The notes below the pieces were generated by a model that was given only the letters and a program-made list of their open reading frames with translations, did not search any database and had not been told where the DNA came from. The translations under genes were made by a program, and so were the position numbers. From NCBI GenBank assembly GCA_051362555.1, contig CM120641.1, forward strand, positions 26,232,401-26,296,400: a stretch of DNA of 64,000 bases, given 5' to 3'. This DNA is from Lingula anatina. Taxonomy: Eukaryota > Animalia > Brachiopoda. Positions 6,665 to 63,628 of the stretch are shown here, in pieces (positions within the stretch are counted from its first letter, which is position 1; every line of letters begins with the position of its first letter).

Positions 6665-7426
6665 ATAAAAGAAAAATGAGGTTATTTTTCTATTTTGGAT
6701 CATTTGAAATTTTTAAAATAAATTTTAGAAATAAATTTGTTCATTTGCCTTTCATTTGATTTGTTATTTTTCATATCAGGGTGAAATATTACTGCCTGGG
6801 GCCAGTTTTACATGCCCTGCTGCATTTTAGTGCTTATTTTGGCCGACTAGCGGCAGCACCTTACGGGTCACTGGAAGGCTATGCCATTATGGACCCTGAT
6901 TTTTTAATATTGTTTAGGCCTTGAGTAGAAGTATTTAAACCTGAAGTGTTGTGTTTGTTGAAGCATGGAAAGTATTTTTAATAGAATTAAACGTTACAAT
7001 AGAAGTGAATGGGATTTTTAATAGTGGTTTGTAACCTTCAAACGATAAAAGAAAAATGAGGTTATTTTTCAATTTTGGATCATTTGAAATTTTTAAAATA
7101 AATTTTAGAAATAAATTTGTTCATTTGCCTTTCATTTGATTTGTTATTTTTCATATCAGGGTGAAATATTACTGCCTGGGGCCAGTTTTACATGCCCTAC
7201 TGCATTTTAGTGCTTATTTTGGCCGACTAGCGGCAGCACCTTACGGGTCACTGGAAGGCTATGCCATTATGGACCCTGATTTTTTAATATTGTTTAGGCC
7301 TGGAGTAGAAGTATTTAAACCTGAAGTATTGTGATTGTTGAAGCATGGAAAGTATTTTTAATAGAATTAAACGTTACAATAGAAGTGAATGGGATTTTTA
7401 ATAGTGGTTTGTAACCTTCAAACGAT
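6665..7426. repeat. Near-identical 380-bp tandem duplication in the DNAL1/MRPS10 divergent promoter region
   Basis: 6665-7044 and 7045-7426 differ by only a few substitutions. Confidence 0.95.
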
Positions 7427-16900: not shown

Positions 16901-19900
16901 ATTAAAAGAACACAACATACAAATTCCTTACTAATTTTCTAAAAGTGCTACCATCTTGATATAATACATGTCAACTACATAATCCTTTCCTTTACATTAA
17001 AAACAAAAATGTTTATTTTGTACAAGGAATTCCATGGCAACCAACACTGTTGGCATTACTTAAGTTGGATTGTAATGAGTCTGTTTAAAGTTGACAAACA
17101 ACACTTGCTGGAGTTGCGAGTCCTCACTGCAGATTCAATCCATGCACAACCGCCACTCTAAAACACATTTGTTGCCTCCAACAAGAAAAGAAAATCTCTT
17201 CAGTTTCATTTCCTTTTTCCCCCTTTTATATAAGATTCTCTGTACAAATTCCTTTAGGACCTTTACATGTTATTGTCTACTTTGAGAAATCTTGTAACAA
17301 AAGGCTCCTTGTCGCGCACACACCACGGAAGTCCATCAACTTAGTTCTGGCCGCGCTCTTCTAAAATGATGGTGGCTGTTGTCTGAGAGTGTGAGAGAGA
17401 AATACAAAATCACTTTGTGATCTTAAAGGAACAATGTGCTTAAACTTCATATCTTTTGCATTAGTTTTTACACATTCAGATCATATTAATTACGAATCTG
17501 ACAACTAAAATGCTCCATAAATTGATTTGGGTAATGGAACATCCTGGAGTCATCACAAAATCTACCCCGAAATATTTGCTCTTTTGGATGGCACAACCAA
17601 GCACGACATGTTCCGCAGTTTTCATATACTGTAGTAGTATATCGCGAGGAAATCTGTCCAGAAAATCATCCATGTTGACCGATCACCAGCATGTCCGCGA
17701 AAAATAAAACTTCCGTAAGTTTTTCCATTGTATAACACATACTCGGCACGATTGATCAGATTCGCGAAACGGCAAGTGCACACCCACTGGAGGATACAAG
17801 ATCGGGTTTGGAGATTTCAAAAAGTTGTCGTATCAAAATACATCAGACTTAGGCAGTGCTTAAAGCATTAAAACAAGTTTTAAACAAGAGAAAACCAGGA
17901 ACCGTTGTCTCTTGTTGAAACATTGTATTAATGACAAGTGCACCAATCTCCTTACCTTCTGTCATAATAAGCGTCATAATAGGGATCAGCCCTGAAAGAA
18001 CAGAAAAAAATAGATTTAGACATTAGATATATACCATATGAAATATTCCTGTTGATCTTAAGAATTATTATATTAGAAATGCATGAAATGGGATGGGTTT
18101 TATTGACCAGAAAATCCCAAAGAAAAGAATTGATGCAATCTAAATGTTGCATGTTTTTCTCCAATGCATGCACCCGTCAGAATGAATGATTGAACTTAAA
18201 CAACCAACACACAAAAATCTCTTTTAAATTATGACTTTATTGCCCTTACAACCAGCCATTAGTTTGGCTTGATTAGAGAAAGATTTTTTTATTGAGACAG
18301 AAAAAAAGTGGTGATACCTTCTCCCATAGTACTCAGGTGGGGGCCTGGCATATGGGTCTCTGTAGTAGTCTCTGGGAGGGGGAGGCAGAGGTCGTCTCCT
18401 TTCATATGGGTCATATGGTCTGTATCTGTCTCCATGTGGAGGGGGGTAATCTCTATAGTAAGGGTCTGGGTATGGGTCCCTGGGGTATGGTTCTCTGCCA
18501 TATGGTTCCCTGGCAGGGGGTCCCCCAAAACGCCTATCTCCTCCACCCCGCCCTCCTCCACGCCGACCTTGCGACCTGATAGATAATAAGAAAATTTCCT
18601 TACAGCACAACTAAACGGCCTATTTTACCTGAAAAAAAACTTTAGGAGAGGCATTTTATTGCCAGGAGATAACTACAAAATAAAAAGTTTTAACTCTTCT
18701 GCATTGGAAATTATTAGATCAATTTATACAGATATGCATTTTGCATAGGAAATAAGTTAACTACCCTCTAGGTGGCATTATGCTCTGAAATGTTTTAATT
18801 ACAAAAAATTTAACCAATACATTCTTTTTATTCAAGCATTTTTCAAATTACTCACCCTCCTCTAGGACAGTCTTTTGACCTAGAAAAACAGAAAAATACA
18901 TTTATTTCACCAATATTTTTATAATCAATAACAACCTGCACCCAAAATAATTTTGAACTGTACAACAATTAGTTTTAATCTCAAATTTCCTTTGCCAAAA
19001 GTGGCCATTCTTTTAAGCCTGCACAAACAGTACTGCACGCAGACAATCGATATTTTAATATTTCTACAAGCAACTTCTTTATGTATCAAATGAATAGTAT
19101 GGATGCTTTAAAAAAGGTGAAAGAACATGCAAAAGAACCTATGTCAATTAGAATGAGAGTGTGTCATATATTAATGAAGGGATTGTAGGAAAAAAGAAAA
19201 GAATGCAACAGTCCAATATTTAATATAATAAATGTTTACATTGCAAGCAACTGTGAATGCTGAAGAAAGTTCTCATAAGCAATTTACAACTTAACATCAT
19301 ATGACCACTCTCATTATGAAAAATAATAGTTTTAGTAAAGAAATTTCAACAAATAACAATAGCTCAACATAAGAGGATTATAACAGACTGATCAGGGTTT
19401 TTTTATGTCATCAATGTCAAAAATTCCGATCACATCTTCCAAACAGCATTCACGGACGAAGCGCCAATCACTTAAGATTTCGAATATTAATAGACTCTCG
19501 ATTCGTCCAGGTCATCAATCAAATTTCTTGACGTCAACTTTTCTAGAAAGAAATTCTTAACATTGGTGCATTCACTTAATGATGTACACAGACTTTTCTC
19601 AATGATAAAATTTATCCATTATTCAGAAAAATGGCATGTACATCACGTCCATGAAACAAATGCTATAAGAAATAAACAACGCAGTGCTTTTACGCGACCA
19701 AAGTCACGCGATTATGTAAATGGCTGCACGAGGAGTTCGGACTCCTTCAACTTACCAATGACCGTCTCGTCCGCATCTATAGCACTCGCCCTTCCCTCCC
19801 ATTCCAGGTTTCTGACGAACTTTACTGTGAGAAAGCTGAAATGCCAATCAGATCACGACATACGTTGATGCTACCAGCGAAGACTGCAATGATTCAGAGT

Positions 19901-30721: not shown

Positions 30722-31216
30722 AAGTTACGCCCCTGACACCGGTTATATATTTCTTGGAAGGGCCATGTAAGTCGTTACGTAGACATCAAAATATGCTTCC
30801 TTTGCAAAAGTTAAAAGAAAAAAAAAGCAAGTCAGCTTTTCTTAAAAGTGTTAGTAAATGTGGTATATATAGAGTTACTTACCAATTCCAGGTGCCACGA
30901 CGTTTAGTATACACAGAATTATAGCTAATGGAAGAGGCATAGAAGGAATGGCACTTCTAAAAGGTCCTTGTTTTTCCTCAACTCGAAGAACTTCCAGTCT
31001 GCGCGCGTCACGTACTGGATTTGGCTGGGTTGCCTGTGCAGGAATCGACCCCCTGGAGGGCACTTGCTTTGTTTCATCACTTTTGGGGGTTTCTATGTTC
31101 ACCTTTTCCTCATCTTTTTTGACGGTTTCGGGTTCTGGTTTTGGTGAATTGTTCAACTCTGCGTTTTCATCGTCTGTTTCCGCTACTTGCACATCCAACT
31201 GGGCGACATCGGCCAT
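27238..31216 (-). CDS. Stum/SPEC3-family membrane protein, paralog A
   Basis: Exons 31216-30883 and 27452-27238 give AIPSMPLPLAIILCILNVVAPGIGTLISSF...LLQLATTIIIVGWIWSILWG, the SPEC3/Stum signature. Confidence 0.92.
30683..30717. repeat. (CA)n microsatellite
   Basis: Directly visible. Confidence 0.95.
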
Positions 31217-34007
31217 GTTTGCTCTTTAAAAATGACACACTACTAAAAGCAACTACAAGTTTTTTTTTGTGTGTGTTTTCACTCTTCCTGGAAAATCAAA
31301 ACACTCTGTTCAATTTTCGAATGGGCTGCAGCTCCAACAACTTGAATTATTGAATAAGTTGTCTTTTAAAACGAATTTGGCCAATCCGAAAGATATTCCG
31401 TATTTTGTGTTTTTAATTGAAGCAAGCCTCCGTTGTGTCGAGGTTCCAAGTCTCATTTCATATCTTTTCTCCGTTGCTTTCTCCTCTCTGAACACTGCAG
31501 TGTGAGCTTTCCCCTGGTCGTCAAGAGAGGTTCGTTAATTACCACACGATCTCTTGATCACACAACCATATCCTCACAATTCTCCTTTCTTGTTGTAAAA
31601 ACAGTGCTCTTTTCTCAAGATTTTAAACTTTTGAAAGAGTCAACTTTCCTATGACTGGCGGGTTATCAGCGATAGAGCTGCTAATCTAGCCAGGTGAGCC
31701 CAGGTAAAGCGCCGTGTGTTTCGCGTCCGCTTAACGCTTCCTTTCTCGCTGAAATCTCCCGAAATGCTGGGGAGTATAAATATGTTTGACGGCGCAAAGC
31801 CCTAATAAATCAGACTCTAGGAAATCCCAGCAGGTACGGCGGTGAGCTGAAAGATGAAAAAACACTCGATCTCTTTGAACATAAATACTGCAACTCTGAC
31901 TACATTCAAAGAATCAGTTACATTCAATTAGCTTGGACAGTATGCACTATTGACAGAACGGCGTTGTCTCTCTGTCGTTGTTTATGCTGAGCTAGTAGAC
32001 GCTAGCTTATAGTTCAAGGAATTTTGCCGAGTGCCTCGCACTAAACGATTTGCCAGGTGAGGTTTTTAAATAGATACGCTGCGGTTGCTCTAAATACCCC
32101 TAATACAGTAACGGTGTGAGTGAGGCTCAATACACCGTGCGAAGAACGCAAATATTTGCCGAAGTCCTCTTTAACGAGCTATCATCGAAAAAAAGTTTCC
32201 CAGGGGTTTGAGTAACAAGAGTTATACTTTACGGATACAATTTATTTGACATTTGAAATATTCACTGAAGATATGTAACACTGAAAATTGTATTATTTAA
32301 CTTCATTTACTCCAATTTCACCCTAGTCCCCTTCTCATCCTGTGTAGCCTGAACATCTCAAGCACCTGTGTGTGTGTGTTGAGCGTAATATTTAACTGCG
32401 GCAGACAGCTCATCCACATTAATCGAAGCCAAGATTTGGTGATTGCCTCGTGCAATACGAGAAGACTTGATCCAGGTGTAAAACGTTTCGTTGGTTGATA
32501 TGCATGCGATTCTGGTTAAGTAAATGTTTTCCGATTGGGTCATGCTATTGCAAATTTTATATTTTAAAGCTATTAATCATAAAGAGTTATTCCTAGGTTA
32601 ACGTTAAAATACATGTATGATTTTGTTTTCTTCAATTTATATATAATATCATTCCATAGAATTATTTAAGCTCATCCAAGTCTATAATAAATATATATTA
32701 GAAGGAGGGGGGGGGGGGGGGACAGATACCTTTAAATCTGAACCGAAAACCTCGTTACTCGTGAACATCCAAACATCATCAATCCGTGAAACCTAGGGCT
32801 TGTTTTGTGGGTCCTGGATGAAATGTAAGACTTAAGCCTTGGCATTTTGCCAACTACTCCGCAAACAGGGCCACGTATACTTGTCACTTGTGAAATGGCG
32901 TTAATGCTAAGTCAATTTGATTCCATAATGGTTTTTTTTCAAACAAGAACTGAAAAAAACATTACTGCCTTCCATAATTATTTTAGCTGTTGTTTGGAGA
33001 AAGTATTATTGTAACTTTGTGCGTGAAACAGCTTATGAAATTCTTTGTTGGACATTTTAATTCAATTTTCATTTTAGCTCTCGTTATTGCAATTTAAAAA
33101 AAAAAAAAACCCGTCCGTTAAACATGTATGAAGTGGAGAAGTGCGGCTGCTGTATTTTCAAATTGCGATAGGTGAGAAGAATGAACACAATAAAGAGCCA
33201 GTGGGATCGTCAAAGTACTGGGCAAAAATGATGCCTTTCCATCCGATCTGTTTGTGACTTTTCATGAAATTTTTGTTTTTGTTAAAATTTAATTGAATCA
33301 GTTAATGAAAGACGCCAATCATATTTATTTAAGTATGTTCACTATTTGACAAGCCTTTCCCTTTTTTCTGTATTTTATGAGGGTATTCAACCGTAAAAGA
33401 TTAAAAACAAAATGCTGAATACGTGGTTTTCAGTTCCACCGACCCTTTCGGTCCTTTCACTTGAAATCCCGACTCCCATATTGGCTTCTACTGCATACAA
33501 TGCACCCACTGCATGCTCAAAAGAGACTATAGTACACGTTTTACTTTCAAATTTAATAAATTTTATGCACTCTTTCAGGGTTGAGTATTTAATCAAATAT
33601 AAAGAAAAGCAGATAAAACATAATAACCCCCCCCCCAAATAAATAAATAAAAATAAAAAGAACAACTGTGCACTTGGAGTAATGCCTTTAAAATGTTTTT
33701 GAATCTTTTCGTTTGCTGCACAATAAACATGATTATTATTAGTCTCACATTATTGCAGCTAATATAAATTGAAATAAATATATGTCAGATACGCATAAAA
33801 TGAATTCTTATTTCAGTGAAATTTAAAAGTGATATCCACCCACTTTTTCGAGTATATCGGCCTTCAGCTTTGGAGTATACATGTACCTTAAATACCGATA
33901 TTTTTCATCCTCTCAGTAATGCATTGTTTTTTTTTCACAGTGCTTCACACGATTTACTGTCTGTTTATATACAGGACACAGTGACGTAAGTAGACAAATA
34001 GTTACCA

Positions 34008-37000: not shown

Positions 37001-37585
37001 GATATAACTAGTTTAATCTAAATGGGCATTTGAATCGATCGAGTCTGAAATATGGGACAACTCCATAATATGATGAGATGTCATGCAATAGCGTGTTATC
37101 CGTATGAAATAATAATAAGTTTGAACCAAAGTCAATATCAGATACCATTTTCACTGGGGTGCTGGGGGGTGGGGGGGGGGGGGGGGGGGGCAAAGGCCTA
37201 TTTTATACTGTTCTACAATATCTAACCTACCTAGGCCGGGGGAGAGGATATTGCATATAAGACAAGCTATGGCAACTGGCCTGCTCATAGCAGGTATAGA
37301 ATCTCTCAAATTCGTCTCTGCCGATGAGCCGGTATGATGCTGCTGCTGCTGCACGGTCAAAGACCCTCGTGCAGTGGCGGGCTGGTGTGACGCTGTCGCG
37401 AAATAGCCTGGCATGACCGGGCGACTGTACCCTTTCACCGACGGCTGTGGGGAAGAAGAGGGGGAGTTGGTGCACCCGTGGTGGTGTGGCTGCGAGGAGG
37501 TTATGTGTCGTTTGGGTAACGGCGAAGGCGGGTGTGGCGGTCGACGCATTGGTGACGGCGAGGCGGCGCTATATATGGCCTGCAT
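34008..37585 (-). CDS. Stum/SPEC3-family membrane protein, paralog B, about 317 aa
   Basis: Exons 37585-37231, 36438-36256 and 34423-34008 join in frame: SIPAMSRPVAIACLICNILSPGLGTFISG...VAVLQCCTTFLLLLGWIWSIIWG, then a long low-complexity C-terminal tail. Confidence 0.9.
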
Positions 37586-39053
37586 TTTGACAGCTCACCT
37601 GGAAATAAGCATTAAAACAATCGGTTGACGTTTGTGGGCAGAGAGCTGTGTACCGTGTTTTATGCCAATGAGAATTCGACGAGGTGTGTTTATATTGATC
37701 ATAAATTCATTTTGTATTACCCAAAGAGGTAATCGCTTGATAAAAAATATCACAAGAAACAGTGCTGAGACTGAGAGCAAGAGGTGACCCCCCCCCCCCA
37801 AAAGAAATTGTTTAGCCGGACACTATTGACCTTTAAGAAATTACGTGCCCTCTACCAAGTGGCAGAACATACAGTTAACTACATTGCATGACGTGTTTCC
37901 AACTTTTCCGTGACCTTAACAGAACTCTGGCCTTCCCGAAGCTGGGTTAAACTTAACAACAAAGTAATTAAGCACCGCGGTATGCCTTATTTCTTAGGGT
38001 ATATATATGTTCTGAATTAATTTTCACCCATTAGAAAAACGTACCATAGGCTCTAGCTTAACAGGTAATAACTCCAGCAATTAGGGACTACTCCAAGATC
38101 AAACAGAAGTACAGATGTAATTATTGCTGGTGTTATCAAAATGTATGTCTTGCACACATTTATTTCAGCTCAAATAACTTGAAAGTAGTTTTTGAAGCAG
38201 TCGTCATCGATCGCGTGTTCTGGGTGATCTCCTCCTAAATTTAATATCTACAACACGCTCTATCTCTCTGTGGGTAATCTTATATATCAATCAATTACAA
38301 TTCGCATCAATATGACATTGCCAAATATTATCCACCAGAGATAGAAACAAAGACATGCCCATATCACATTCGGTCTGAATTTCGCTACAAGAAAACTAAC
38401 GTTATGAGAATATCTTCTCAAAATAAATAAATAAAATAAATAAATAAATAATAGATGAATAAAAACGTGTGTTCACACGCTATGGTGCGGCCGTTTGGAG
38501 AATGTATTCAGAGGAGTCTTTTGTCTATTTTCGCTGGCTGGAAATTAAAAATAGACCCAAATCGGTCTTGGTTAAAATTTATGTCTGAAAGTATTTTCAC
38601 AATAATGAACGTAGTGACATCTTTGGTTCTGACATGTAACGTGCAGTCATTGATTTTGATGCCAGGTTCTCTTCTCATTTCTCTACAACCATAACAGAAC
38701 GATTTGAGAATAAAAATGGAGTGTGATGTTCGCGAAAGTTGACATCAGCAAATACTTACAATTATGTTCACAACTGAACAGTGAAATATTCTGCAAAATG
38801 TTTGTCTTGTTGCAATCGTGAAAAGAGAGCAGACATTAAGTAACATAAAAACCCATGCCGTAAAGTCAAGATCATAACACAACCAGAAACCCAAAAGAAT
38901 AACAACTGTTCATTTTGGCCAAAAATGAATTTTCCTGTGATAAACGACAAATTTCCATACTTACCAATGGTTAATGAATCCATTCCTACATTCAAAGTCA
39001 GTCACTGTTTTTTTTTTCCTATTTTTGATTTCACATAGTCCAATGACAAGCAC

Positions 39054-53176: not shown

Positions 53177-54837
53177 CAGGGTTACCACTTAATATGGAAT
53201 ATTTTTTATCATTGTTATTTTTGAGTGCTGATTAATTTTTTTTTGGCTTGAGTCATTAAAAAAGTATGTCACTGATTGATAATAACATCCAGTCTTCTGT
53301 TGTGAGATATTTTGGTCAATAATATTAAATCTGACATAAGATGCCATTCAAAAGAAAGGAACACCCCCAGAAAACCATATCAACAGTTTGATGTCAGTAT
53401 AAACTTTAAGCTAAGATATTAAAGAAAATGATAGCCTCCGGACAGTGATATGTTACACAGTCAAAGAACTCACTACAGTAAATCATGAAAAGTCAGTAAT
53501 TGCGGGTATGACCTCCAGCAGCCGCTTGCAGCGCCTTCATCCTACATGGCATATCCTGTGGCACGTTTTTTAAGAGTTTGGGTGGAGATATCATTCCACG
53601 CAGTGATATTTGCCTGTCGCAGTTCATCACTATTTACCGGCCGAGGACCATAGCTATTAATTCTGTGAGTTACTTCCGCCCACAAATTTTCAATTGGGTT
53701 CATATCTGGAGAGTTTGCAGGCCAGGGCAGTTGCTGAACCCATTGGTTTTGAAGAAAAACGGTGATTCTGTGGCCTCGATGTGGGGTTGCGCAGTCGTCT
53801 TGGTACACAAAGTTGTTCCTGAAGATGAATCTTACCAATCGAAGCACTGTTTGCTGTAGAATGTCTCTGTAGGAATCCTGGATGAGGTTGCCTCCTAGAA
53901 AAACCAACTGGTTCTGGGTACCGACATGAAATGCTCCCCAAACAGAGACGTTACCATCCCCTCCTTTCACCCTAGGCAGTACATAATCATTGTTTTATGC
54001 TCCTCGTACACGTCGGTGGACACGGATTCGACGATCAACCCTAAAAAATCCATATCTGGCCTTATCACTGAAAACAACGTGATTCCAGTGTTTTGGCTGC
54101 AAACGCACGTGGTCCCCAACCCTTTGCAGACGTCGCTGTATATGACCTGATGTTAACAGTGGTTTCCCTACTGGCCTTCGTGCAAAATAACCGGCTTGCA
54201 GAAATATCTTGTTCACGTGGGACCTTGAAACGGGCGTTTGAATGACATTCTGCCTCTCTTTTCTGAGGACACTGGTTGTCTTTGTACGACCAGCACGGCG
54301 TCCACTAAGGAGAAAGCGATCCTGTCTTCTTGGTGTGATACGCGGACACCCTGGTCGAGGTATTGGAGTAGGTGCCCCTGTAGCAGCATTTCTTTGGAGG
54401 ACTTCACAAACGGTTCCTGATAAATGTTGAATTACCTGGCAATGGCTGTCCGTTTCTGGCCATTTTCTCTGAGAGCAAGAATCCCATAGTACGCTGCGTT
54501 GCTTTGCTGTCGTACCATATCTTCACTAAGGTACCTGTCAAGTTTCAGAGCGATCCCTTTGTTGCTTCTCTAAACACGCCCCAAAGATTGACCAAACCCA
54601 TGCGTTTTTATACAAGGGCAGAAATTGCCGAAAAGACCACCCCTCACATTTCTGACCACAGAACATGCAACTGCATGCATCAATTGTTTCGAGAGTTGTG
54701 TGGTAATTAGGTAACACATCTGGCTACACATGGAGTGACACCTCAGCTTTGGATTTAATGTACTTTGAGAGAAATTAAATATTTTGTAGAAAATTTATTC
54801 GCCAAAAAATAATATTCCATATTAAGTGGTAACCCTG
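53177..54837 (-). mobile_element. Tc1/mariner DNA transposon, 1661 bp, both ends intact
   Basis: Perfect 27-bp TIRs cagggttaccacttaatatggaatatt (53177-53203 and 54811-54837), with TA on both flanks. Confidence 0.96.
53542..54518 (-). pseudogene. Disrupted Tc1-like DDE transposase
   Basis: Motifs WNHVVFSD, VYQDDCATPH and WPANSPDMNPIENLW are split across separate ORFs. There is an in-frame TAA after MVRQQSNAAYYGILALRENGQKRTAIAR. Confidence 0.92.
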
Positions 54838-55063: not shown

Positions 55064-57771
55064 CTGGATTTAGCAATTTTCATCTAGTGTCGGGGCGCAT
55101 GTTGAACATTGCAAGTGCCAGCATCGAGTGATACATGTAGCCGCATTACACTCCTTGATCAGTTTCTTAAAAACCTTTATCATCAAGCGCGATGAATTAG
55201 TTTGACGCGTGTCAAAAATATGCCCCAGTTGACTTTTTTTTCTTGAGAAGATCTAAGCAGAAATTTATTCTCGCGTATACCTCTCGCCTCTCGGTCAATC
55301 TGCATCCCCCAGCAGTATCACGCGACTGCCCTGACAACAATAGATATGATATACCCTCTACCAGGGCCGCAGATTTTATTATGTGGGGTTTTTCTCTGAC
55401 GCGAGAAATGCAGAGAAGAACCGTCAATTTAACCAGAGACATATCTGTGAATGTCTAGTGAAAAATCAATCTGTGGCCCTGATAGAGGGTAGGTAAGATA
55501 AAGGGCGATAGTTGGTTGGCGTGCCCATGGTTGGGGATTTAGAGTTCGCGTTTTCTGACCACTTCATTTTTGGACAAGGTGTGTATTTTCTTAAACCGTT
55601 ATACCCTGGTGGCGTGGCTTTTACGATCATTTACAAAGTTTGAGAAGGTTTATATCAATCCATCTTAAGTTTTAACCGTCCAAAGTCTAACATGGACGTG
55701 GCTCTACACCTAGCTGAAGGGTGACTGTTGCCTCCTTGCTGTACAAGTGTTTCATTCTTGTGTAAAGTTGAAAACGGACACTTACACAGATAGATAAGAA
55801 AAACACAACACAGAAATTGAAAAAGCATGCGCAAGTGTGGTTTCATTAAAAAAGAAAAAAGAGAGCGAAGCACGGGATTGCACCTATTCACATAGCACAA
55901 CTGAAAAATGATTTTTTTTAAACGAAGGAGACACGGTTCTTTCCATGCAATGATCTCAAGGGATGTGCTGACGTGTGTTTAGCGGTTCAACTGGCACTAA
56001 TCTCTCTTTAACGTGTTCATCTAAAGTTCCACCATATACTTTATCGATTCTGTCTTATTGAAATATCTGTCTTTGGTCTACCTGCCGCTATGTGCACCGA
56101 ACCGATTCCGACTGCATGGGTGGCTGCTTCCAGAAAACAGTTTGCCATTATGGCTTTTATAAAATCGAGGGTAAAAGTGCATGTAGCGCAGCTTCAATTG
56201 ATCAAATATTTCTGTTCTATTTAAGTTTTCTTTAAGGCGCTGACGGGAAAGTTTCCTCAAATAGTCCCATTAGACAAGCTTTTTAAGTGCTATTTTTTAC
56301 CATTTCAGAATGTAATGGAAGTTCACTTACCACTACCGAAGCCGCCGTAGAGACAACAAAATCTATAACAACTACTGTTGGCACAACGGTACGCTCTCAA
56401 TCTTACCATTTTTTAATTAGAAAATAAGCGTTACGATTGTGTCTTACAAGGTTATCCTTGTGTTCTAACCATAGTATTAAATACCTTTTTGTATTTTTCG
56501 CCTCTCGCTCTCTTTCTCACAGAGATATAAACGTACAGTAATAAAATGGCTAAAAAGACACTTTGAAACACGTTACTTTGAAACACGTTTCTTTTTTAAT
56601 TTGGTTGCTATTTTATTTTTCATAGACAACTGAGGATCCGGGGGACAGTCAAGCAATGCTAGTTGGCTTACTATCTGGCCTCGGTTTTTTTGCTGGAATA
56701 GTGACGTGCTGCTGTATAATATGGTGTATATGCTGCGGATCTCTATGCAAGGACACCAAGAGCAATAAAGTGTCACCGGCCAATTCGCCAACGGAGCTAC
56801 TGGATCGCATTGAAAGAGGACGGTGATAAACATTTTACACGCTAAAAATCATGCACGAGAAAATTCCATAACCCGAATATGTGTTATTTGAGAAGATTTT
56901 TTAAAAAGGTGGGATATATCGATTGTCCACTCTGAGGACTTAACTTTGTGCTAGTTATTTGAAACTAGCGGATTTGATTTTTTTTGTAGTTTTTACATGA
57001 CAGAATTGAAAGCGGTCGTGCAGTGATAGTACGGTATGCTATAATACAAGAGTATCTGTGATAGCCCTATATCATGACTGTGGAGAGAGAGTCTTGTGAC
57101 TTTTTCACAGCTTCCAAAGGACGGTTATTGGTCAGAGATAAGAATTTTTCTTACGAGGGAGAATGGTTTTTTGAAGAGGAATATCTATATATATTTTGTG
57201 TCAAGAACAATTTGCAAAACTGTCTTTGTTTTTTAAGGTGACTTTGCTAACTTGAGCAATACGTCAACCATAATCTGATAAAATGGTACTATGACATTCT
57301 GTGTCCCGTCCCGTTACATGTTTTCACTGATATAATATATACGCACGTTTCCATGTTAACTGATACCGCACGGGAACCCAACATTTCTGGGAACCGAGGT
57401 ATCTGACACTGTGATATGATAAACACGAAGCCATGACCGCATTTGTAAATCATCAGACGAAGAACTTCATCAAATCAGCCGTGTTCGCGGCCTGTCATGC
57501 TTTTCTGCTGCACTTTGTGATGGCCTCGCCGTATTTTCATGGTACCATGATTTCTTGTGCCGATATTTATCTTGACGACCGCCGGATCTTTCGGTAGGAA
57601 ACAGAATGCTCACTGTGGCTTACAATTAATTGTGAATACATAAATGTACAGTTACCGACAGCCGTCCCCAAGGGAAAGAACACGATCAATAGGTATATCT
57701 GGGTCAATACACCGTTAATTTAATATATGGCTTTGGCCAGAATATGGTATATACGCCATTGCAGGAGATTG

Positions 57772-57819
<48 letters not shown>

Positions 57820-59388
57820 TAAAAAAAAAACGACCAGCTGATAAGAAGAAATAGAAGTTGAATAAAATGATAGACAAGGATCTGCATTAAAGATTAAGAA
57901 GCATTTAAGGTGAACGTGGGTATGATCCGTCATTCAGGCTCAATTGACACGTTAATCACAATGTTATCGGGCACTCATTGTAAATCTTTTTAATAGTCGA
58001 TTGAATGTTGATGAAACTTGTTATCAGCCATTTGTTAAGAAGTAGGTGAAAACGGCGACATATTTGCCTACTCATAAGAATTAATACCGCAGTGTCATCA
58101 TTGAGTACATTTTTTCAGAAAGAAAAAAGAACATTTCGTATCGACCGCATTCGTCATTTATTTTCATGAATACACTAGATCGGTCTATTCAATGAAAAAC
58201 GATCCCAGTGACATACTGAGCATACGATTAGTCTTTTTATCTTTTTTCAATGAACTTTATGGTTGAATGCACTCCAGGAAACCAATGTATAGATTAAAAC
58301 GTGAAGTAAGCGGAATGCTGTCTATCCGAGCATTTAGCACGTTCTTGCTAATACTCGCAGAACTGGCACAACTCACATATCAGAATATAGTCTGGAAATA
58401 TGGATTGCGCTCCATATTCAAGTTGGTAGTCATAGAAAATGAATGTCAAGTTTACCACATGCATGCATGTGTTGAAGCAATAGGCAAACCCAAGTTCTTT
58501 TTCCGGTATTCAAGTGAAGGACTTATGCATAACGTATTTATTAAGGTGTCTAGTAGGCCTACATGAAGAGAGTTTTAGATTTTTCATTTTGAGACGTATG
58601 GAATAATAGTCTCGTGTAACAAAATCGACTTTACAAAGCTTCATACGACAGCAAATTTAGCAGTCGATTTGTGCCTGTCTAAACTGTCATGCTGATGAAT
58701 GAAACTATGTCTGAAGGATTATAAATTAACAACATTTTCTGGGGTTTTCTTTAATCGATATTCAATGAAAATATGTGTGCGAAGGACTGCACAATAACAA
58801 CATTACAACATTTTCTAGCGTCTTCTAAAGTCAATAGTCAATGGTGTACACGAAGGATTACACATGAACAATATTCTCCAGGGTTTTCGATAGTTGACAG
58901 TCAACTTATTGACGAGGAACAGTGAAGTATCTCGACCTGTTAAGCAACCAAGAGGCGTCAGTGCAAGGAAATTTTAACAATTACTAAAAATTATATATAT
59001 AGTACATGTAACTTAAATGTTGAAAAATCCGTTTGTTTAACTTTCGCTATATGTGTAAAACAAACATTCAGATTCGTTATATCATCTTTATTGAAACTAT
59101 ACTCTACGGCTAAATTAAAGATTTTATTTTCAAAAGCAAACAACAACGTATACAGATGTCCATACAATGTGGTATATAGCCTAAAACATGATTTTGACAA
59201 ATTATGCGGTTTCGTAATATCTGGTCAGTTTGCCCCAACTTTTATGTGGCTGAAGACCTTCATGTGTTCATGTTGGCTTTGAGACAGTTATGACTTTTGT
59301 ACATCTCTGTTTTTTTTTTTTTTTTTGTTTTTTTTTTTTCATTTTTTAATAAATAGGCTACCGGAGCTTTCCAGGAACTGCCGCACCG

Positions 59389-60376
59389 TTACCTAAAAAC
59401 AAGGTTTACAATCAATTACTAGATATCTACTTCCCACATATTTAAGATTACAATATTCTATAAAAAAAAAATCGGTCTCTAAAGAAATATTAAAATTAAG
59501 CTTTGTCAGTCACAAATTAACTAATGGGCAACTGCTTATTTTGTAAATAAAACGATGAGAAAGAAGAAGATAACTTTGGAACTTACTCAGAAGGAGAACC
59601 TTCGGTCTTCACGCATTGTGGACAGTTCTCCGTGCAAGGCTACAATGTTATGAAGAAGAAAAAAATAACTGAGAAAGACTTTATGATTATACACAATTCC
59701 TGTATGACCCATTTCCCATAAAAACCAGAAAACTAGGACGCCATGCAAAAGTAAAGTGAAATACTACAAACTTAACAAGACGTGCAACATGTTATATATA
59801 AACTTATACAACGAGTATGGGTTATGTACGTAGATTAAAAACAAGCACTAAAACTTGTCAACTGCTGAATTTCACTTCCTATTATTTAATGACATAATGC
59901 CTCTATTGGCTCAGTAGCTTTTGGCACATCACTGTGATCCTCTAGAACAAAGTGTCAACTTCTCTTGCCGGGATATATTCTATGTTTTTTTTTAATAAAA
60001 ATTGGCCTTGGTGAAAATTCTATTAACAGGGCTGAGCAGACCGCGAGACGAGCGAGAATATGTCCATAAATGCAGCGAATAAAAAAACATGCCACAAAGC
60101 AATCAATACATCAGATAAAAAATATTTATTTAAAAAAAAACTATAGTGCTAACAAAATACTTTGCTTTTAATCGATGCCTATACAGCATGCAGTCCATGC
60201 CTCTTACCTCCTAGTGACAGTGATGGGAGTGATGATGGTCATGTGCAGCAGTCTTTGTTGCAGAAGTAAAATAAATTTATATTTCACAAACCAGCGTCTG
60301 TTAAGGTATTTTAGTTCAAAAGTCTGTCATACTGGTTTCTAGACAGTTGTAAGGAAAAAAACTGGTGGTCACACAC

Positions 60377-60432
<56 letters not shown>

Positions 60433-61375
60433 ACAAAGGGCTCAGTCATCACCGAAGTCATGAAACCTCACCTTTCCATCCTTACAGCAGTCCTTTCCAG
60501 CGCAATTGGCACACTCTGGTTTACAGCAGCAATTAGCAGTGGTACATGAAGGGCAAGACTCCTTGCAGGCCTGGAATATCAGAGCGTACTCTCTTTGTAA
60601 AACAAACTAAATCACAGCTTTACATTTGAAGAATGAGTTTTGAATTCAAGTATTTGGCAATTATTACTGAGTTGGTTTGGTCTCTCGATTTCCCTCTGAA
60701 ACGCAAGTGAGAGTGAATGAAGAGCAGTTCAATGGGAAAGAATAAAGATAACAAAAAAAAAAAAAAAAATCGGATTATCAAATTAAGCAAAACAATAATT
60801 TAATACGAAATATGTGACCTGTAGATAATTCAGTGGGTGGGGTGGGGTGAGTGGGGTGGGATGGAGAAGAACGAACCCCATCTCCTGCCCCCCCCCCCCC
60901 GCCTTTATCTATCCGCTGCTTCTCTCTTTCTTTCTCTCTCTCTCATATAAATACTGTCTCACCTCTCCCTCGGTAGTACAGCATTCCTTGTCCTTGCATT
61001 CACAGCACTGACACTTTGGGCACTTGCAGCCCTCATCGCACGTGGCCTTCCTGAAATCAGCAAATGTGGTAGTTGAGACACGTGCACAGCTGTGGAATGA
61101 AAATTAACACAACCCAGCAGATCATTTGGGGATAGTTAATTTTTCCATCTTACTTGCAACAAGCGCTCTCTAATTTGAGCATTATGTATTGCGTAACATT
61201 TTGATTAGTTTTGAGCAGAAATAATTAAATTAGCAAAATGCAGATCTCCGATTTCTTCAAGTCAGATAGCATCTGCTGTTCACTAAAAGGTCCAACAAGC
61301 TTTTAGCTCGACAATGCAGCTCATTCACTCGACTTACGCGCCGGTGCATTTTCCACAGCATTGAACATCTGCCAT
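59389..61375 (-). CDS. Metallothionein-like Cys-rich protein (93 aa, 25 Cys, no aromatic residues)
   Basis: GT-AG exons 61375-61338, 61050-60963, 60570-60472, 59639-59587 and 59392-59389 join in frame: MADVQCCGKCTGAKATCDEGCKCPKCQCCECKDKECCTTEGEACKESCPSCTTANCCCKPECANCAGKDCCKDGKPCTENCPQCVKTEGSPSE*. Start context is AAAATGG. Confidence 0.88.
60208..60252 (-). CDS. 45-nt cassette exon encoding a His-rich tail TAAHDHHHSHHCH*
   Basis: U-rich tract then aag acceptor, strong donor GAG|gtaaga, phase 0-0, in frame with the upstream Cys-rich exon. Confidence 0.72.
60370..60435. repeat. (CT)n(CA)n compound microsatellite in a metallothionein-like gene intron
   Basis: Directly visible; reads (UG)n(AG)n in the pre-mRNA. 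Confidence 0.95.
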
Positions 61376-61521
61376 TTTGAGTCTGAAAAAAATGAGCATA
61401 CTGATAAGCATGATGTTAAGGCTACACGTTCATGACAAATAAAGCATTACTTGAAACGGACGATTAAACGGACTGTGTATAAAATTATCAATAAATTTTG
61501 TAACTAAAACTGCTACTCTTA

Positions 61522-61522
61522 A

Positions 61523-61559
<37 letters not shown>
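61522..61559. repeat. (ACT)n microsatellite
   Basis: Directly visible. Confidence 0.95.
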
Positions 61560-61589
61560 GCAAAGCCGTCTTCTGTAGGCCTCACAGTT

Positions 61590-61596
61590 TGCACGC
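61590..61596 (+). promoter_or_regulatory. Candidate metal response element core (TGCACGC)
   Basis: Matches TGCRCNC about 215 bp upstream of the ATG. A second match, TGCACAC, is at 63545-63551. Short motif, so it may be chance. Confidence 0.35.
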
Positions 61597-63628
61597 GTTT
61601 TCTTCGCCCCATCAGTGGAATACAGCCCAGTTCTTTCCTGTCCTTTCCTCAATGTTCAAGTCTGATGTTCTCTGTCTTTAAATTTGCATTGTATAGACTA
61701 CGGAGGCCAACCGTCTTCCCCCCCCCCCCCCCCTTCCTCCTCTAAACTTTTAGTTTTCTTGTTTGAAGGTTAAATTTTAATTGATAATATTAAAACAGAA
61801 ATAATATACTATGAAGTCGATTTTCAGTGAAATCAGGAATTTATCCCGTTAAGTGGTATTATATACTGGGAAGTGTCTTAACATACGTGCATGATAACAA
61901 TTAAGGACAGAACTGCAAGAAAAAAATGGCGATGAGACTACTTTTAACCTTTATCCATAACGCTCATAATGAATATTTGTCGTTTGTTTGGCAAACTAGA
62001 AAACGCACGTTCAAGAGGGCATTGGGCCACTTGCCAAAGCGCAACGTAATTTTCCATTCAAACGAGTTGAAGATTAACCCAATTGCTGCGGTTTATCGTA
62101 TGATTATTCTTTATAAATGAATGATTGTGGATTGTAACGCGTCAAATGATAGCGCTTTTTATTGGCGTAATGATAGCAGTTGATAACCTAATTGATTTTT
62201 GCAACTTTAATACTTTGTGACTAGGAAGCGCGAGCGTACGCACGTGCGGGAGTACAGCTACGTGCCAAGAGCCACATGACTGTTGTTGACTTACTCAACG
62301 TTACTGAGACTCTTTGCCGAATTTTACTCCCACTAAAGCCGTGAATTATTTTAGTGTACAATGCAGCGCCACAACACTGAGAAGGAACAGTTTTAATGCC
62401 AACCATAGAATTGGTGTAACAGTCCTGTCAACACTCGAGATCACGTCGGGGGTCTCGTGACCTCCCGACTCAGACCAAAAATCTCCCGATCTATCAGACT
62501 TTTCTTTCCTGTCGTTAGAACGGCTGGTGACATTATTAAAAACCGTGCCGTTACATTATCGTCTTCTTAGTTTCATTGATGGAGGGTAGTGATTGCAGTA
62601 AACAATAAGGAGGAAATGTAAAGACAAAACCACGTAGGGTCCATCCGGAACACTATGTATGTTAATTCTTAACACGCCTCCTCCTGACCCTATACCAGGG
62701 TCACAGTTTGATTTTTCAATAGATATTCACAGATATGTCTCTGTTTAAATGAATGGCTGATCTCTGTAATGTTTGTGGATCTTTCTTTCTTCCTTTTATT
62801 ATGATTATTTTATTTTATTTTATTTTTTTGGGGGGAGGGGGCAATTTCTATTGTGAGTGGATAGTCAACACGTGAAGTGCCAAATAAAAAAAAGAATACA
62901 ATAGCAATTTCCATGCCAAATTATCAGAAACATCTCGTAACAATTTCCTGCGTGAAAAATCAATAAAGTTTATTAATGGATCTTCAGCAGACAGCATACT
63001 GCATAAACAGGCTTACGTAGATCTGCTTCATATAGATGCACAAACATGTATCTTTCTTCGTTAAAAAGTTTTTTCGCTTTATCATATCAAGAAATATGTA
63101 ATTTTGTCTCATTTATTCTTCCCTCCTATCGTTGCTTTCTTCTCGAAGTTTGGCCGTCTTGCTACATATAATGTGCTTTCTAATGATTAAATAACGTTCC
63201 AATCTTATAAGCACGGCAGCAATAGAAACACGACCTCAAAGGAGACAGCGCTTCATCAATAATTAATACGAAAGATGGTGCAATCGTCTTTTAACGTCTA
63301 TGATAAACAACACGAGCGTGTGAATGTACAAATTTCCAATTTTCTCGTGAAAATAAGAGTTATTTTGATCTGGATAACATGAAATCTTATTCTATATTTT
63401 TTCAATTCAATACTGAATGATTGCCCTCACTTACCTTATCTCTCGTATTTCAGTGTAACTTGGAGCCTAGCTATGTAGCTGGTAGACGTGGAGGACGCTG
63501 TTAAACTCAGCAGGCTGTTGCGTTTTGTTAATTTTATACGACTTTGCACACGAGACACTGACTACCGCCCGCAAACGTCAGGCACGAGACTCGGTTTATC
63601 TAAGGAAACGGTATTTAGACAATTTTGT

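What the first reader, a model, noticed from the sequence alone, without database searches (positions are those of the whole stretch)
59389..61375. Small-exon metallothionein-like gene with an atypical repeated Cys module, missed by the ORF track
Seen: 25 Cys in 93 aa, no aromatics, with CC doublets and one CCC triplet. An internal repeat, CKDKECCTTEGE|ACKESCPSC versus CAGKDCCKDGK|PCTENCPQC, has a phase-0 intron at the same point in each copy, suggesting exon duplication. Known: common mollusc metallothionein alpha/beta domains are built mainly from CxC motifs. Inference: this spacing may be an undescribed domain type.
Basis: partly seen in the sequence, partly recalled or inferred. Interest (0 to 1): 0.75.

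Follow-up and report, generated by a model that had tools for sequence, protein, structure and literature searches.

The report
Brachiopod metallothionein with switchable histidine tail
A lamp-shell (brachiopod) gene that likely encodes a metal-binding metallothionein is spliced two ways in about equal amounts, and the extra exon would swap the protein's last three cysteines for a short histidine-rich tail, likely changing how it holds metals.

Summary
The gene is real. The host is a brachiopod (a neighbouring gene is 100% identical to a Lingula anatina protein), not a mollusc. The Cys spacing fully matches none of 21 published metallothionein domain or submodule patterns, but shares pieces with Tetrahymena 7a, spider D3 and amphioxus patterns, so 'new domain type' is plausible, not shown. 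Metal binding, metal induction and translation of the His form are untested; its stop lies 56 nt before the last junction, so a decay-coupled exon is a live rival. No homologue was found from single exons. The scan had not noted this on other DNA.

The parts
63545..63552 (+). Metal-response element core (TGCRCNCS match) 7 nt upstream of the TATA box of the minus-strand gene
   Evidence: 17 such 8-mers in the window (10.3 expected), chance of a 7-mer within a given 60 nt about 0.03; function inferred
63532..63538 (-). TATA box (TATAAAA)
   Evidence: lies about 50 nt upstream of the place where 5 molecules of X7 begin (63488)
63435..63510 (-). Exon 0, non-coding, no ATG; upper end approximate
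   Evidence: joint 61382-63435 in X4 13, X7 61, X5 7 reads; no ATG in 63520-63435 plus the 7 nt before the start
61590..61597 (+). Second MRE core, in intron 1
   Evidence: function not tested
61338..61382 (-). Exon 1, start codon at 61375, 3 Cys, ends in phase 2
60963..61050 (-). Exon 2, 9 Cys, holds the CKCxxCxCC motif, ends in phase 0
60472..60570 (-). Exon 3, 10 Cys including CCC, phase 0/0
60208..60252 (-). Cassette exon, 45 nt, phase 0/0; in frame gives 13 residues with 7 His and 1 Cys, then TAG at 60213-60211, 3 nt before its donor
   Evidence: joints 60252-60472 (129 reads) and 59639-60208 (95 reads) against skip joint 59639-60472 (87 reads)
59587..59639 (-). Exon 4, 3 Cys (Cx3Cx2C); coding when the cassette is skipped, 3' UTR when it is included
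59087..59392 (-). Exon 5: last base of codon 93, stop 59391-59389, 3' UTR with AATAAA at 59128 and 59092; reads of X4 and X5 reach further down, to about 58700

Best explanation
This is a transcribed, spliced brachiopod gene that likely encodes a cytosolic metallothionein, and it makes two mRNAs in roughly equal amounts: one codes for a 93-residue all-cysteine form, the other would end in a 7-histidine tail that likely adds a weaker, zinc-preferring binding site in place of the last three thiolates. Shown: gene structure, both splice forms, coding constraint, MRE and TATA motifs. Inferred: MTF-1 binds the MRE and induces the gene on metal load; the 25 Cys form two thiolate clusters (exons 1+2, 12 Cys; exons 3+4, 13 Cys) holding about 8-10 divalent ions at 2.5-3 Cys per ion; the cassette leaves the second cluster with 10-11 Cys plus 7 imidazoles, shifting it from tight Cd/Zn sequestration towards exchangeable Zn (or Cu/Ni) buffering. 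One gene would thus do by splicing what C. elegans does with two genes (His-bearing CeMT-1, His-poor CeMT-2). I put 0.8 on metallothionein and about 0.65 on a translated, functional His form given that.
For: 27% Cys, no aromatics, 12 Lys, like the sipunculan PeMT (105 aa, 28 Cys, 12 Lys, no aromatics; passages of PMC11242308). No hydrophobic stretch (best 9-residue mean 0.68) and no upstream ATG, so thiols are likely cytosolic and reduced. MRE 8-mer 7 nt from the TATA box (consensus from PMC2234263). Tetrahymena 7a MT motif CKCxxCxCC at residues 21-29 (P=0.006 in residue shuffles, uncorrected). 14 of 23 listed coding variants synonymous (P 1e-5 to 1e-3) and 1 of 23 alters a Cys, in 4 of 93 reads of one run. 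Cassette included in 6 of 6 expressing runs from two studies whose alleles differ at about 5% of sites, inclusion 0.42-0.89, total 95 of 182. It has a consensus-like donor and a pyrimidine-rich acceptor, its length is a multiple of 3, and the His frame is the frame the splice uses (1 of 3 frames). Both cassette variants listed keep all 7 His (one His-synonymous, one Cys to Ser). Of 60,381 stop-free 13-codon windows, those with 6 or more His fall in 7 clusters: 5 at CA microsatellites, this exon, and one other.
Against: No metal binding, induction or peptide evidence. No sequence relative: single-exon searches of Pfam, PDB (35, 36), 1.84 billion representatives (30) and the 5.8 billion set (33, 54) were blank and the Atlas gave only 0.77/0.75 unnamed hits (51); these queries were 29-64 aa and had no positive control. 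The cassette stop is 56 nt before the last junction, at the edge of the 50-55 nt decay rule (recalled). The cassette is not significantly more conserved than the nearby 3' UTR (1 of 45 vs 4 of 44 fixed differences, P=0.20), and its one Cys is lost in one population. MRE cores are not rare (37 7-mers in the window, 29 expected). His residues in amphioxus BfMT1 do not bind Zn (PMC3419175 passage), nor stably in a simulation of C. elegans MTL-1 (PMC12779199 passage). Cassette conservation outside this species label could not be tested.
Confidence: 0.55

Rival explanations
1. It is a metallothionein, but the cassette is a stop-carrying regulatory (poison) exon or a recently exonised intron piece; its His content is incidental and the included mRNA is decayed or gives a merely truncated protein.
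For: In-frame TAG 56 nt upstream of the last junction; no significant extra conservation; the exon is rich in CAT/CAC triplets, a low-complexity pattern; TAG sits 3 nt before the donor of an otherwise frame-keeping exon.
Against: Included form is 52% of steady-state junction reads in six runs, three of them labelled oligo-dT, unlike a decayed form; 3' UTR is only 60 nt longer; 7 His in 13 residues in the spliced frame of a metal-binding gene; both listed variants keep the His.
Confidence: 0.25
2. It is not a metallothionein but a cytosolic Cys-rich structural protein (keratin-associated or sperm-tail type, names recalled) cross-linked by disulfides, with the His tail serving metal cross-linking in a hard tissue.
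For: CC/CCC doublets and Cx3Cx2C repeats instead of CxC (3 CxC, 6 CC, 5 Cx2C, 4 Cx3C); expression in 6 of 8 runs and none in the two runs of study P1; no MT family hit.
Against: No signal peptide; MRE beside TATA; CKCxxCxCC MT motif; single copy in the window with small exons; only 6 Pro.
Confidence: 0.12
3. The cassette is meant as an in-frame 15-residue His insert and its TAG is read through (or is a recent change), giving a long form with both the His segment and the last Cys motif.
For: Exon is 45 nt, phase 0/0, and the frame continues into exon 4 to the normal stop (second stop at codon 109).
Against: No variant at 60213-60211 among the rows shown (36 rows were not shown); TAG followed by G is a poor read-through context (recalled).
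Confidence: 0.08

Closest known systems
Amphioxus MT2 (BfMT2/BlaMT2, long and short forms; PMC3419175, PMC8476144)
   Same: Animal MT gene with small exons, MREs and cassette-exon splicing; its 9-Cys pattern is the best whole-domain fit (6 of 8 gaps, P=0.01-0.02 uncorrected, 0.2 after correction).
   Different: There the cassette adds or removes a whole Cys domain; here it swaps ligand chemistry (3 Cys for 7 His + 1 Cys) and both forms are about equally abundant.
Tetrahymena subfamily 7a Cd-metallothioneins (PMC1808422)
   Same: Modular, CC and CCC clusters, elementary motif CKCxxCxCC present once, CCx6C present once.
   Different: Neither complete submodule (C3X6C2X6, C2X6CXCXXCXCC) is present; ciliate genes are intronless; likely convergent.
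Spider MT3, D3 repeat Cx3[CxC]x2[CxCC]x4C (PMC13168519)
   Same: First five Cys gaps of exon 2 equal the first five of D3 (P=0.004-0.013 uncorrected, 0.08-0.25 corrected); protein made of imperfect repeats.
   Different: One partial copy only; exon 3 does not follow D3; MT3 is reported only from spiders.
Sipunculan Phascolosoma esculenta PeMT (PMC11242308)
   Same: Lophotrochozoan, similar size and make-up (105 aa, 28 Cys, 12 Lys, CC/CxC/Cx2C/Cx3C).
His-bearing MTs: C. elegans CeMT-1 and Pseudomonas PflQ2 MT (PMC4101491, PMC7387436)
   Same: Histidines, in Pseudomonas with a disordered C-terminal tail, on a Cys cluster protein.
   Different: His are constitutive there (4 in CeMT-1); here 7 His sit on one optional exon. 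His are described as exceptional in animal MTs (PMC10612145).
Mollusc alpha, beta1-3, gamma, delta domains (PMC7826182)
   Same: Small Cys-rich modules; gamma and delta also use CC doublets.
   Different: Best fits 4/8 to 8/13 gaps, none above shuffled order (P 0.14-0.98).

Membership tests
Metallothionein superfamily | Under about 100 aa, 15-30% Cys, few or no aromatics | tested here: met
   93 aa, 25 Cys (27%), 0 aromatics; criteria from PMC8476144
Metallothionein superfamily | Cys in CxC, CC, CCC motifs | tested here: met
   3 CxC, 6 CC steps including one CCC
Metallothionein superfamily | Intracellular (no signal peptide) | tested here: met
   no hydrophobic stretch, no upstream ATG in the spliced 5' UTR
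Metallothionein superfamily | MRE in the proximal promoter | tested here: met
   TGCRCNCS match at 63545-63552 next to TATA at 63538; one proximal copy only
Metallothionein superfamily | Binds d10 metals in thiolate clusters | not testable with these tools
   needs recombinant protein and ESI-MS/ICP
Metallothionein superfamily | Induced by metals | not testable with these tools
   runs are coded, treatments unknown
Pfam metallothionein families | Profile match | tested here: inconclusive
   no family at E<=10 for single exons of 29-64 aa; the spliced protein was not scanned
Mollusc MT domains alpha/beta1-3/gamma/delta | Published Cys spacing | tested here: not met
   patterns from Table 1 of PMC7826182 and PMC8476144
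Echinoderm, vertebrate, tunicate, insect, chelicerate D1/D2 domains | Published Cys spacing | tested here: not met
   (all P>0.13)
Amphioxus 9-Cys domain | CCx2Cx2Cx3Cx[CxC]xCC | tested here: not met
   6 of 8 gaps, longest exact run 2
Spider MT3 | 3-5 repeats of D3 | tested here: not met
   one partial copy, 5 of 6 gaps
Tetrahymena MT 7a | Modules ending in CXCCK built of type 1 and type 2 submodules | tested here: not met
   elementary motif present once, no complete submodule
Annelid (earthworm, polychaete, sipunculan) MTs | Alignable Cys pattern | not tested
   sequences were not in the paper texts seen and no search returned them

The most novel reading that the evidence does not exclude
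A first brachiopod metallothionein, built from its own exon-sized Cys module, in which one cassette exon acts as a ligand switch: the cell chooses by splicing between an all-thiolate detoxifying form and a His-tailed zinc-buffering form, possibly under metal control.
Probability: 0.4. Interest if true: 0.78.

Novelty: new variant of a known kind. Interest (0 to 1): 0.6.

Why it matters
How metallothioneins gain preference for Zn, Cd or Cu is a standing question, usually studied by comparing paralogues that differ at many sites. Two natural forms that share 75 residues and differ only in a Cys versus His ending give a clean test of what histidines do in an animal MT. It would also fill a phylum gap (no brachiopod MT paper was found) and bear on how often MT domains arise anew. 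The gene appears to be absent from the protein collection searched although its neighbour is there.

Tried and rejected
No whole genome is held, so paralogues elsewhere could not be sought; no paralogous exon in the window. Single-exon homology searches were blank; Atlas for exon 3 gave only low unnamed hits (51); an Atlas look at exon 2 did not complete. Candidate alternative acceptor at 61088 and candidate micro-exon near 61170 (seen): no joints or 37 (X8 has 5 reads over 61060-61064, unexplained intron-side cover); rejected. Idea that the cassette is a frame-shifted copy of a Cys exon (another frame reads Cx3CC across its acceptor): 13 of 16 nt match to exon 2, not above window background; rejected. 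Differences in inclusion between runs: not significant (P=0.06-0.07). No structure or complex prediction was run: metal-free models of 33-residue Cys-rich exons would not be meaningful. Viral and prokaryotic collections were not searched (animal gene).

Full report
Observation. Introns after exons 2 and 3 are phase 0 and fall one residue before a Cx3Cx2C motif in both repeat copies. The repeat scores above chance as protein (P=0.0008; 0.014 with Cys fixed) but not as DNA (P=0.43), so a duplication, if real, is old.

Host. A neighbouring frame (30878-31225) is 100% identical over 97% of its length to a protein named 'protein stum homolog isoform X3 [Lingula anatina]'. The window is therefore from a brachiopod, not a mollusc. 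No whole genome was available.

Expression and true structure. Eight of nine listed RNA runs were laid, 6-30% of each read. Six express the gene (X4-X9, studies P2 and P3); X1 and X2 (study P1) do not. In the P2 runs first mates lie almost only on the plus strand, which fits a minus-strand RNA. Joints confirm E1-E2, E3-E4 and E4-E5; E2-E3 is backed by 13 loose-end reads and empty intron depth, since the tool dropped rows next to repeats. Two exons are new. A non-coding exon ends at 63435 (81 junction reads); upstream lie TATAAAA at 63538 and an MRE 8-mer at 63545-63552, with a second MRE in intron 1 (consensus from passages of PMC2234263). MRE cores are not rare in the window (37 seen, 29 expected); the position beside the TATA box is the evidence (about 0.03 by chance for a 60-nt stretch).

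The cassette. A 45-nt exon at 60252-60208 lies between exons 3 and 4. Cassette-to-exon-4 against exon-3-to-exon-4 junction reads: X4 5/5, X5 3/4, X6 8/1, X7 24/28, X8 21/29, X9 34/20; total 95 of 182, 52%. The upstream joint has 129 reads in five of six runs. In the spliced frame it codes x3-H-x-HHH-x-HH-C-H and then TAG, giving an 88-residue form with 23 Cys and 7 His (one search took the exon one base short, corrected, with no effect on the protein). The other two frames hold 1 and 0 His. The stop lies 56 nt before the last junction, which by the recalled 50-55 nt rule could invite decay, but the form is half of the steady-state mRNA.

Selection. Among 23 coding variants listed for the all-Cys form, 14 are synonymous against 19-29% expected (P 1e-5 to 1e-3) and one, in 4 of 93 reads of X8, alters a Cys. 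The tables hid 35 and 1 further rows, one variant (61338) came from the joint table, and variants are not independent. In the cassette, one variant is His-synonymous (X4) and one turns the Cys to Ser (X7-X9); its divergence (1 of 45) is not significantly below the 3' UTR's (4 of 44; P=0.20).

Mechanism. Shown: structure, two splice forms, coding constraint, promoter motifs, no signal peptide. Inferred: a cytosolic metal-thiolate protein under MTF-1 control, with 12 Cys in exons 1+2 and 13 in exons 3+4, about 8-10 divalent ions at the 2.5-3 Cys per ion reported for chelicerate MTs (passage of PMC13168519). Inclusion of the cassette would trade three thiolates for seven imidazoles, which by general coordination chemistry (recalled) favours Zn, Cu or Ni over Cd and binds more weakly. 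Against this, His residues do not always bind in MTs (amphioxus BfMT1; a simulation of C. elegans MTL-1).

Comparison. Eighteen published domain patterns, spider D3 and two Tetrahymena submodules were tested; none matches fully. Partial matches: amphioxus 9-Cys (6 of 8 gaps), spider D3 (5 of 6), and the Tetrahymena motif CKCxxCxCC; the first two do not survive correction for 19 tests, the third (P=0.006) is uncorrected. Annelid MTs, the likeliest kin, could not be aligned. Single-exon searches found no relative; they are weak for short Cys-rich queries and had no positive control. Alternative splicing of an MT is known in amphioxus MT2, where it changes the number of Cys domains; His-rich MTs are known in C. 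elegans and Pseudomonas. I found no paper on a brachiopod MT (searches: all 15 and 7 listings seen; 72: 15 of 5,953) and none on an MT exon that swaps Cys for His (searches: top 20 of 169, 25 of 323, 25 of 2,907 listings); the library is open-access only. Searches gave background papers only.

What I saw of each paper: PMC5412396 first 2 of 8 parts plus passages; PMC13168519 sections 5 and 12 plus passages; passages only of PMC7826182, PMC8476144, PMC12783039, 10.1101/2025.01.04.631296, PMC12779199, PMC11242308, PMC10612145, PMC4101491, PMC2234263, PMC1808422, PMC7387436, PMC3419175. No supplement was opened; the sequence tables and figures of PMC7826182, PMC8476144 and PMC13168519 (its Fig. 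S6) could hold a brachiopod MT and bear on novelty. Earlier scan notes held nothing on this gene.

Verdict. A real, expressed, apparently unannotated brachiopod metallothionein-like gene with an unusual though not unprecedented Cys vocabulary; its notable feature is a major splice form with a His tail. New variant of a known kind; interest 0.6.

Noticed in passing
window 30878-31225 and 37154-37594 (-): Two Spec3/stum-like exons about 6 kb apart (Pfam PF15795 below its cut-off); tandem paralogues or alternative exons of the stum homolog.
   Followed up: partly
window 53542-54522 (-): Tc1/mariner-type transposase remnant (DDE_3, E 3e-8), broken by a stop.
   Followed up: partly
window 56062-56826 (+): Likely exons of a small single-pass membrane protein (Cys-rich piece, Thr-rich stalk, hydrophobic helix followed by CCC) facing the 3' end of this gene.
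   Followed up: no
window 62687-62752: Short dispersed repeat inside intron 1 that draws reads with many different flanks in all four runs.
   Followed up: no
runs X7-X9 on window 59115-61361: Study P3 reads differ from the window at about 5% of exon sites and more in UTR and intron, though filed under the same species label; possibly a distinct population or cryptic species.
   Followed up: partly
window 18224-18610 (-): Pro/Tyr/Arg/Asp-rich low-complexity exon of the kind found at the end of RNA-binding proteins (recalled); no Pfam hit.
   Followed up: no
window 6665-7426: Tandem duplication of 380 bp, 98% identical.
   Followed up: no
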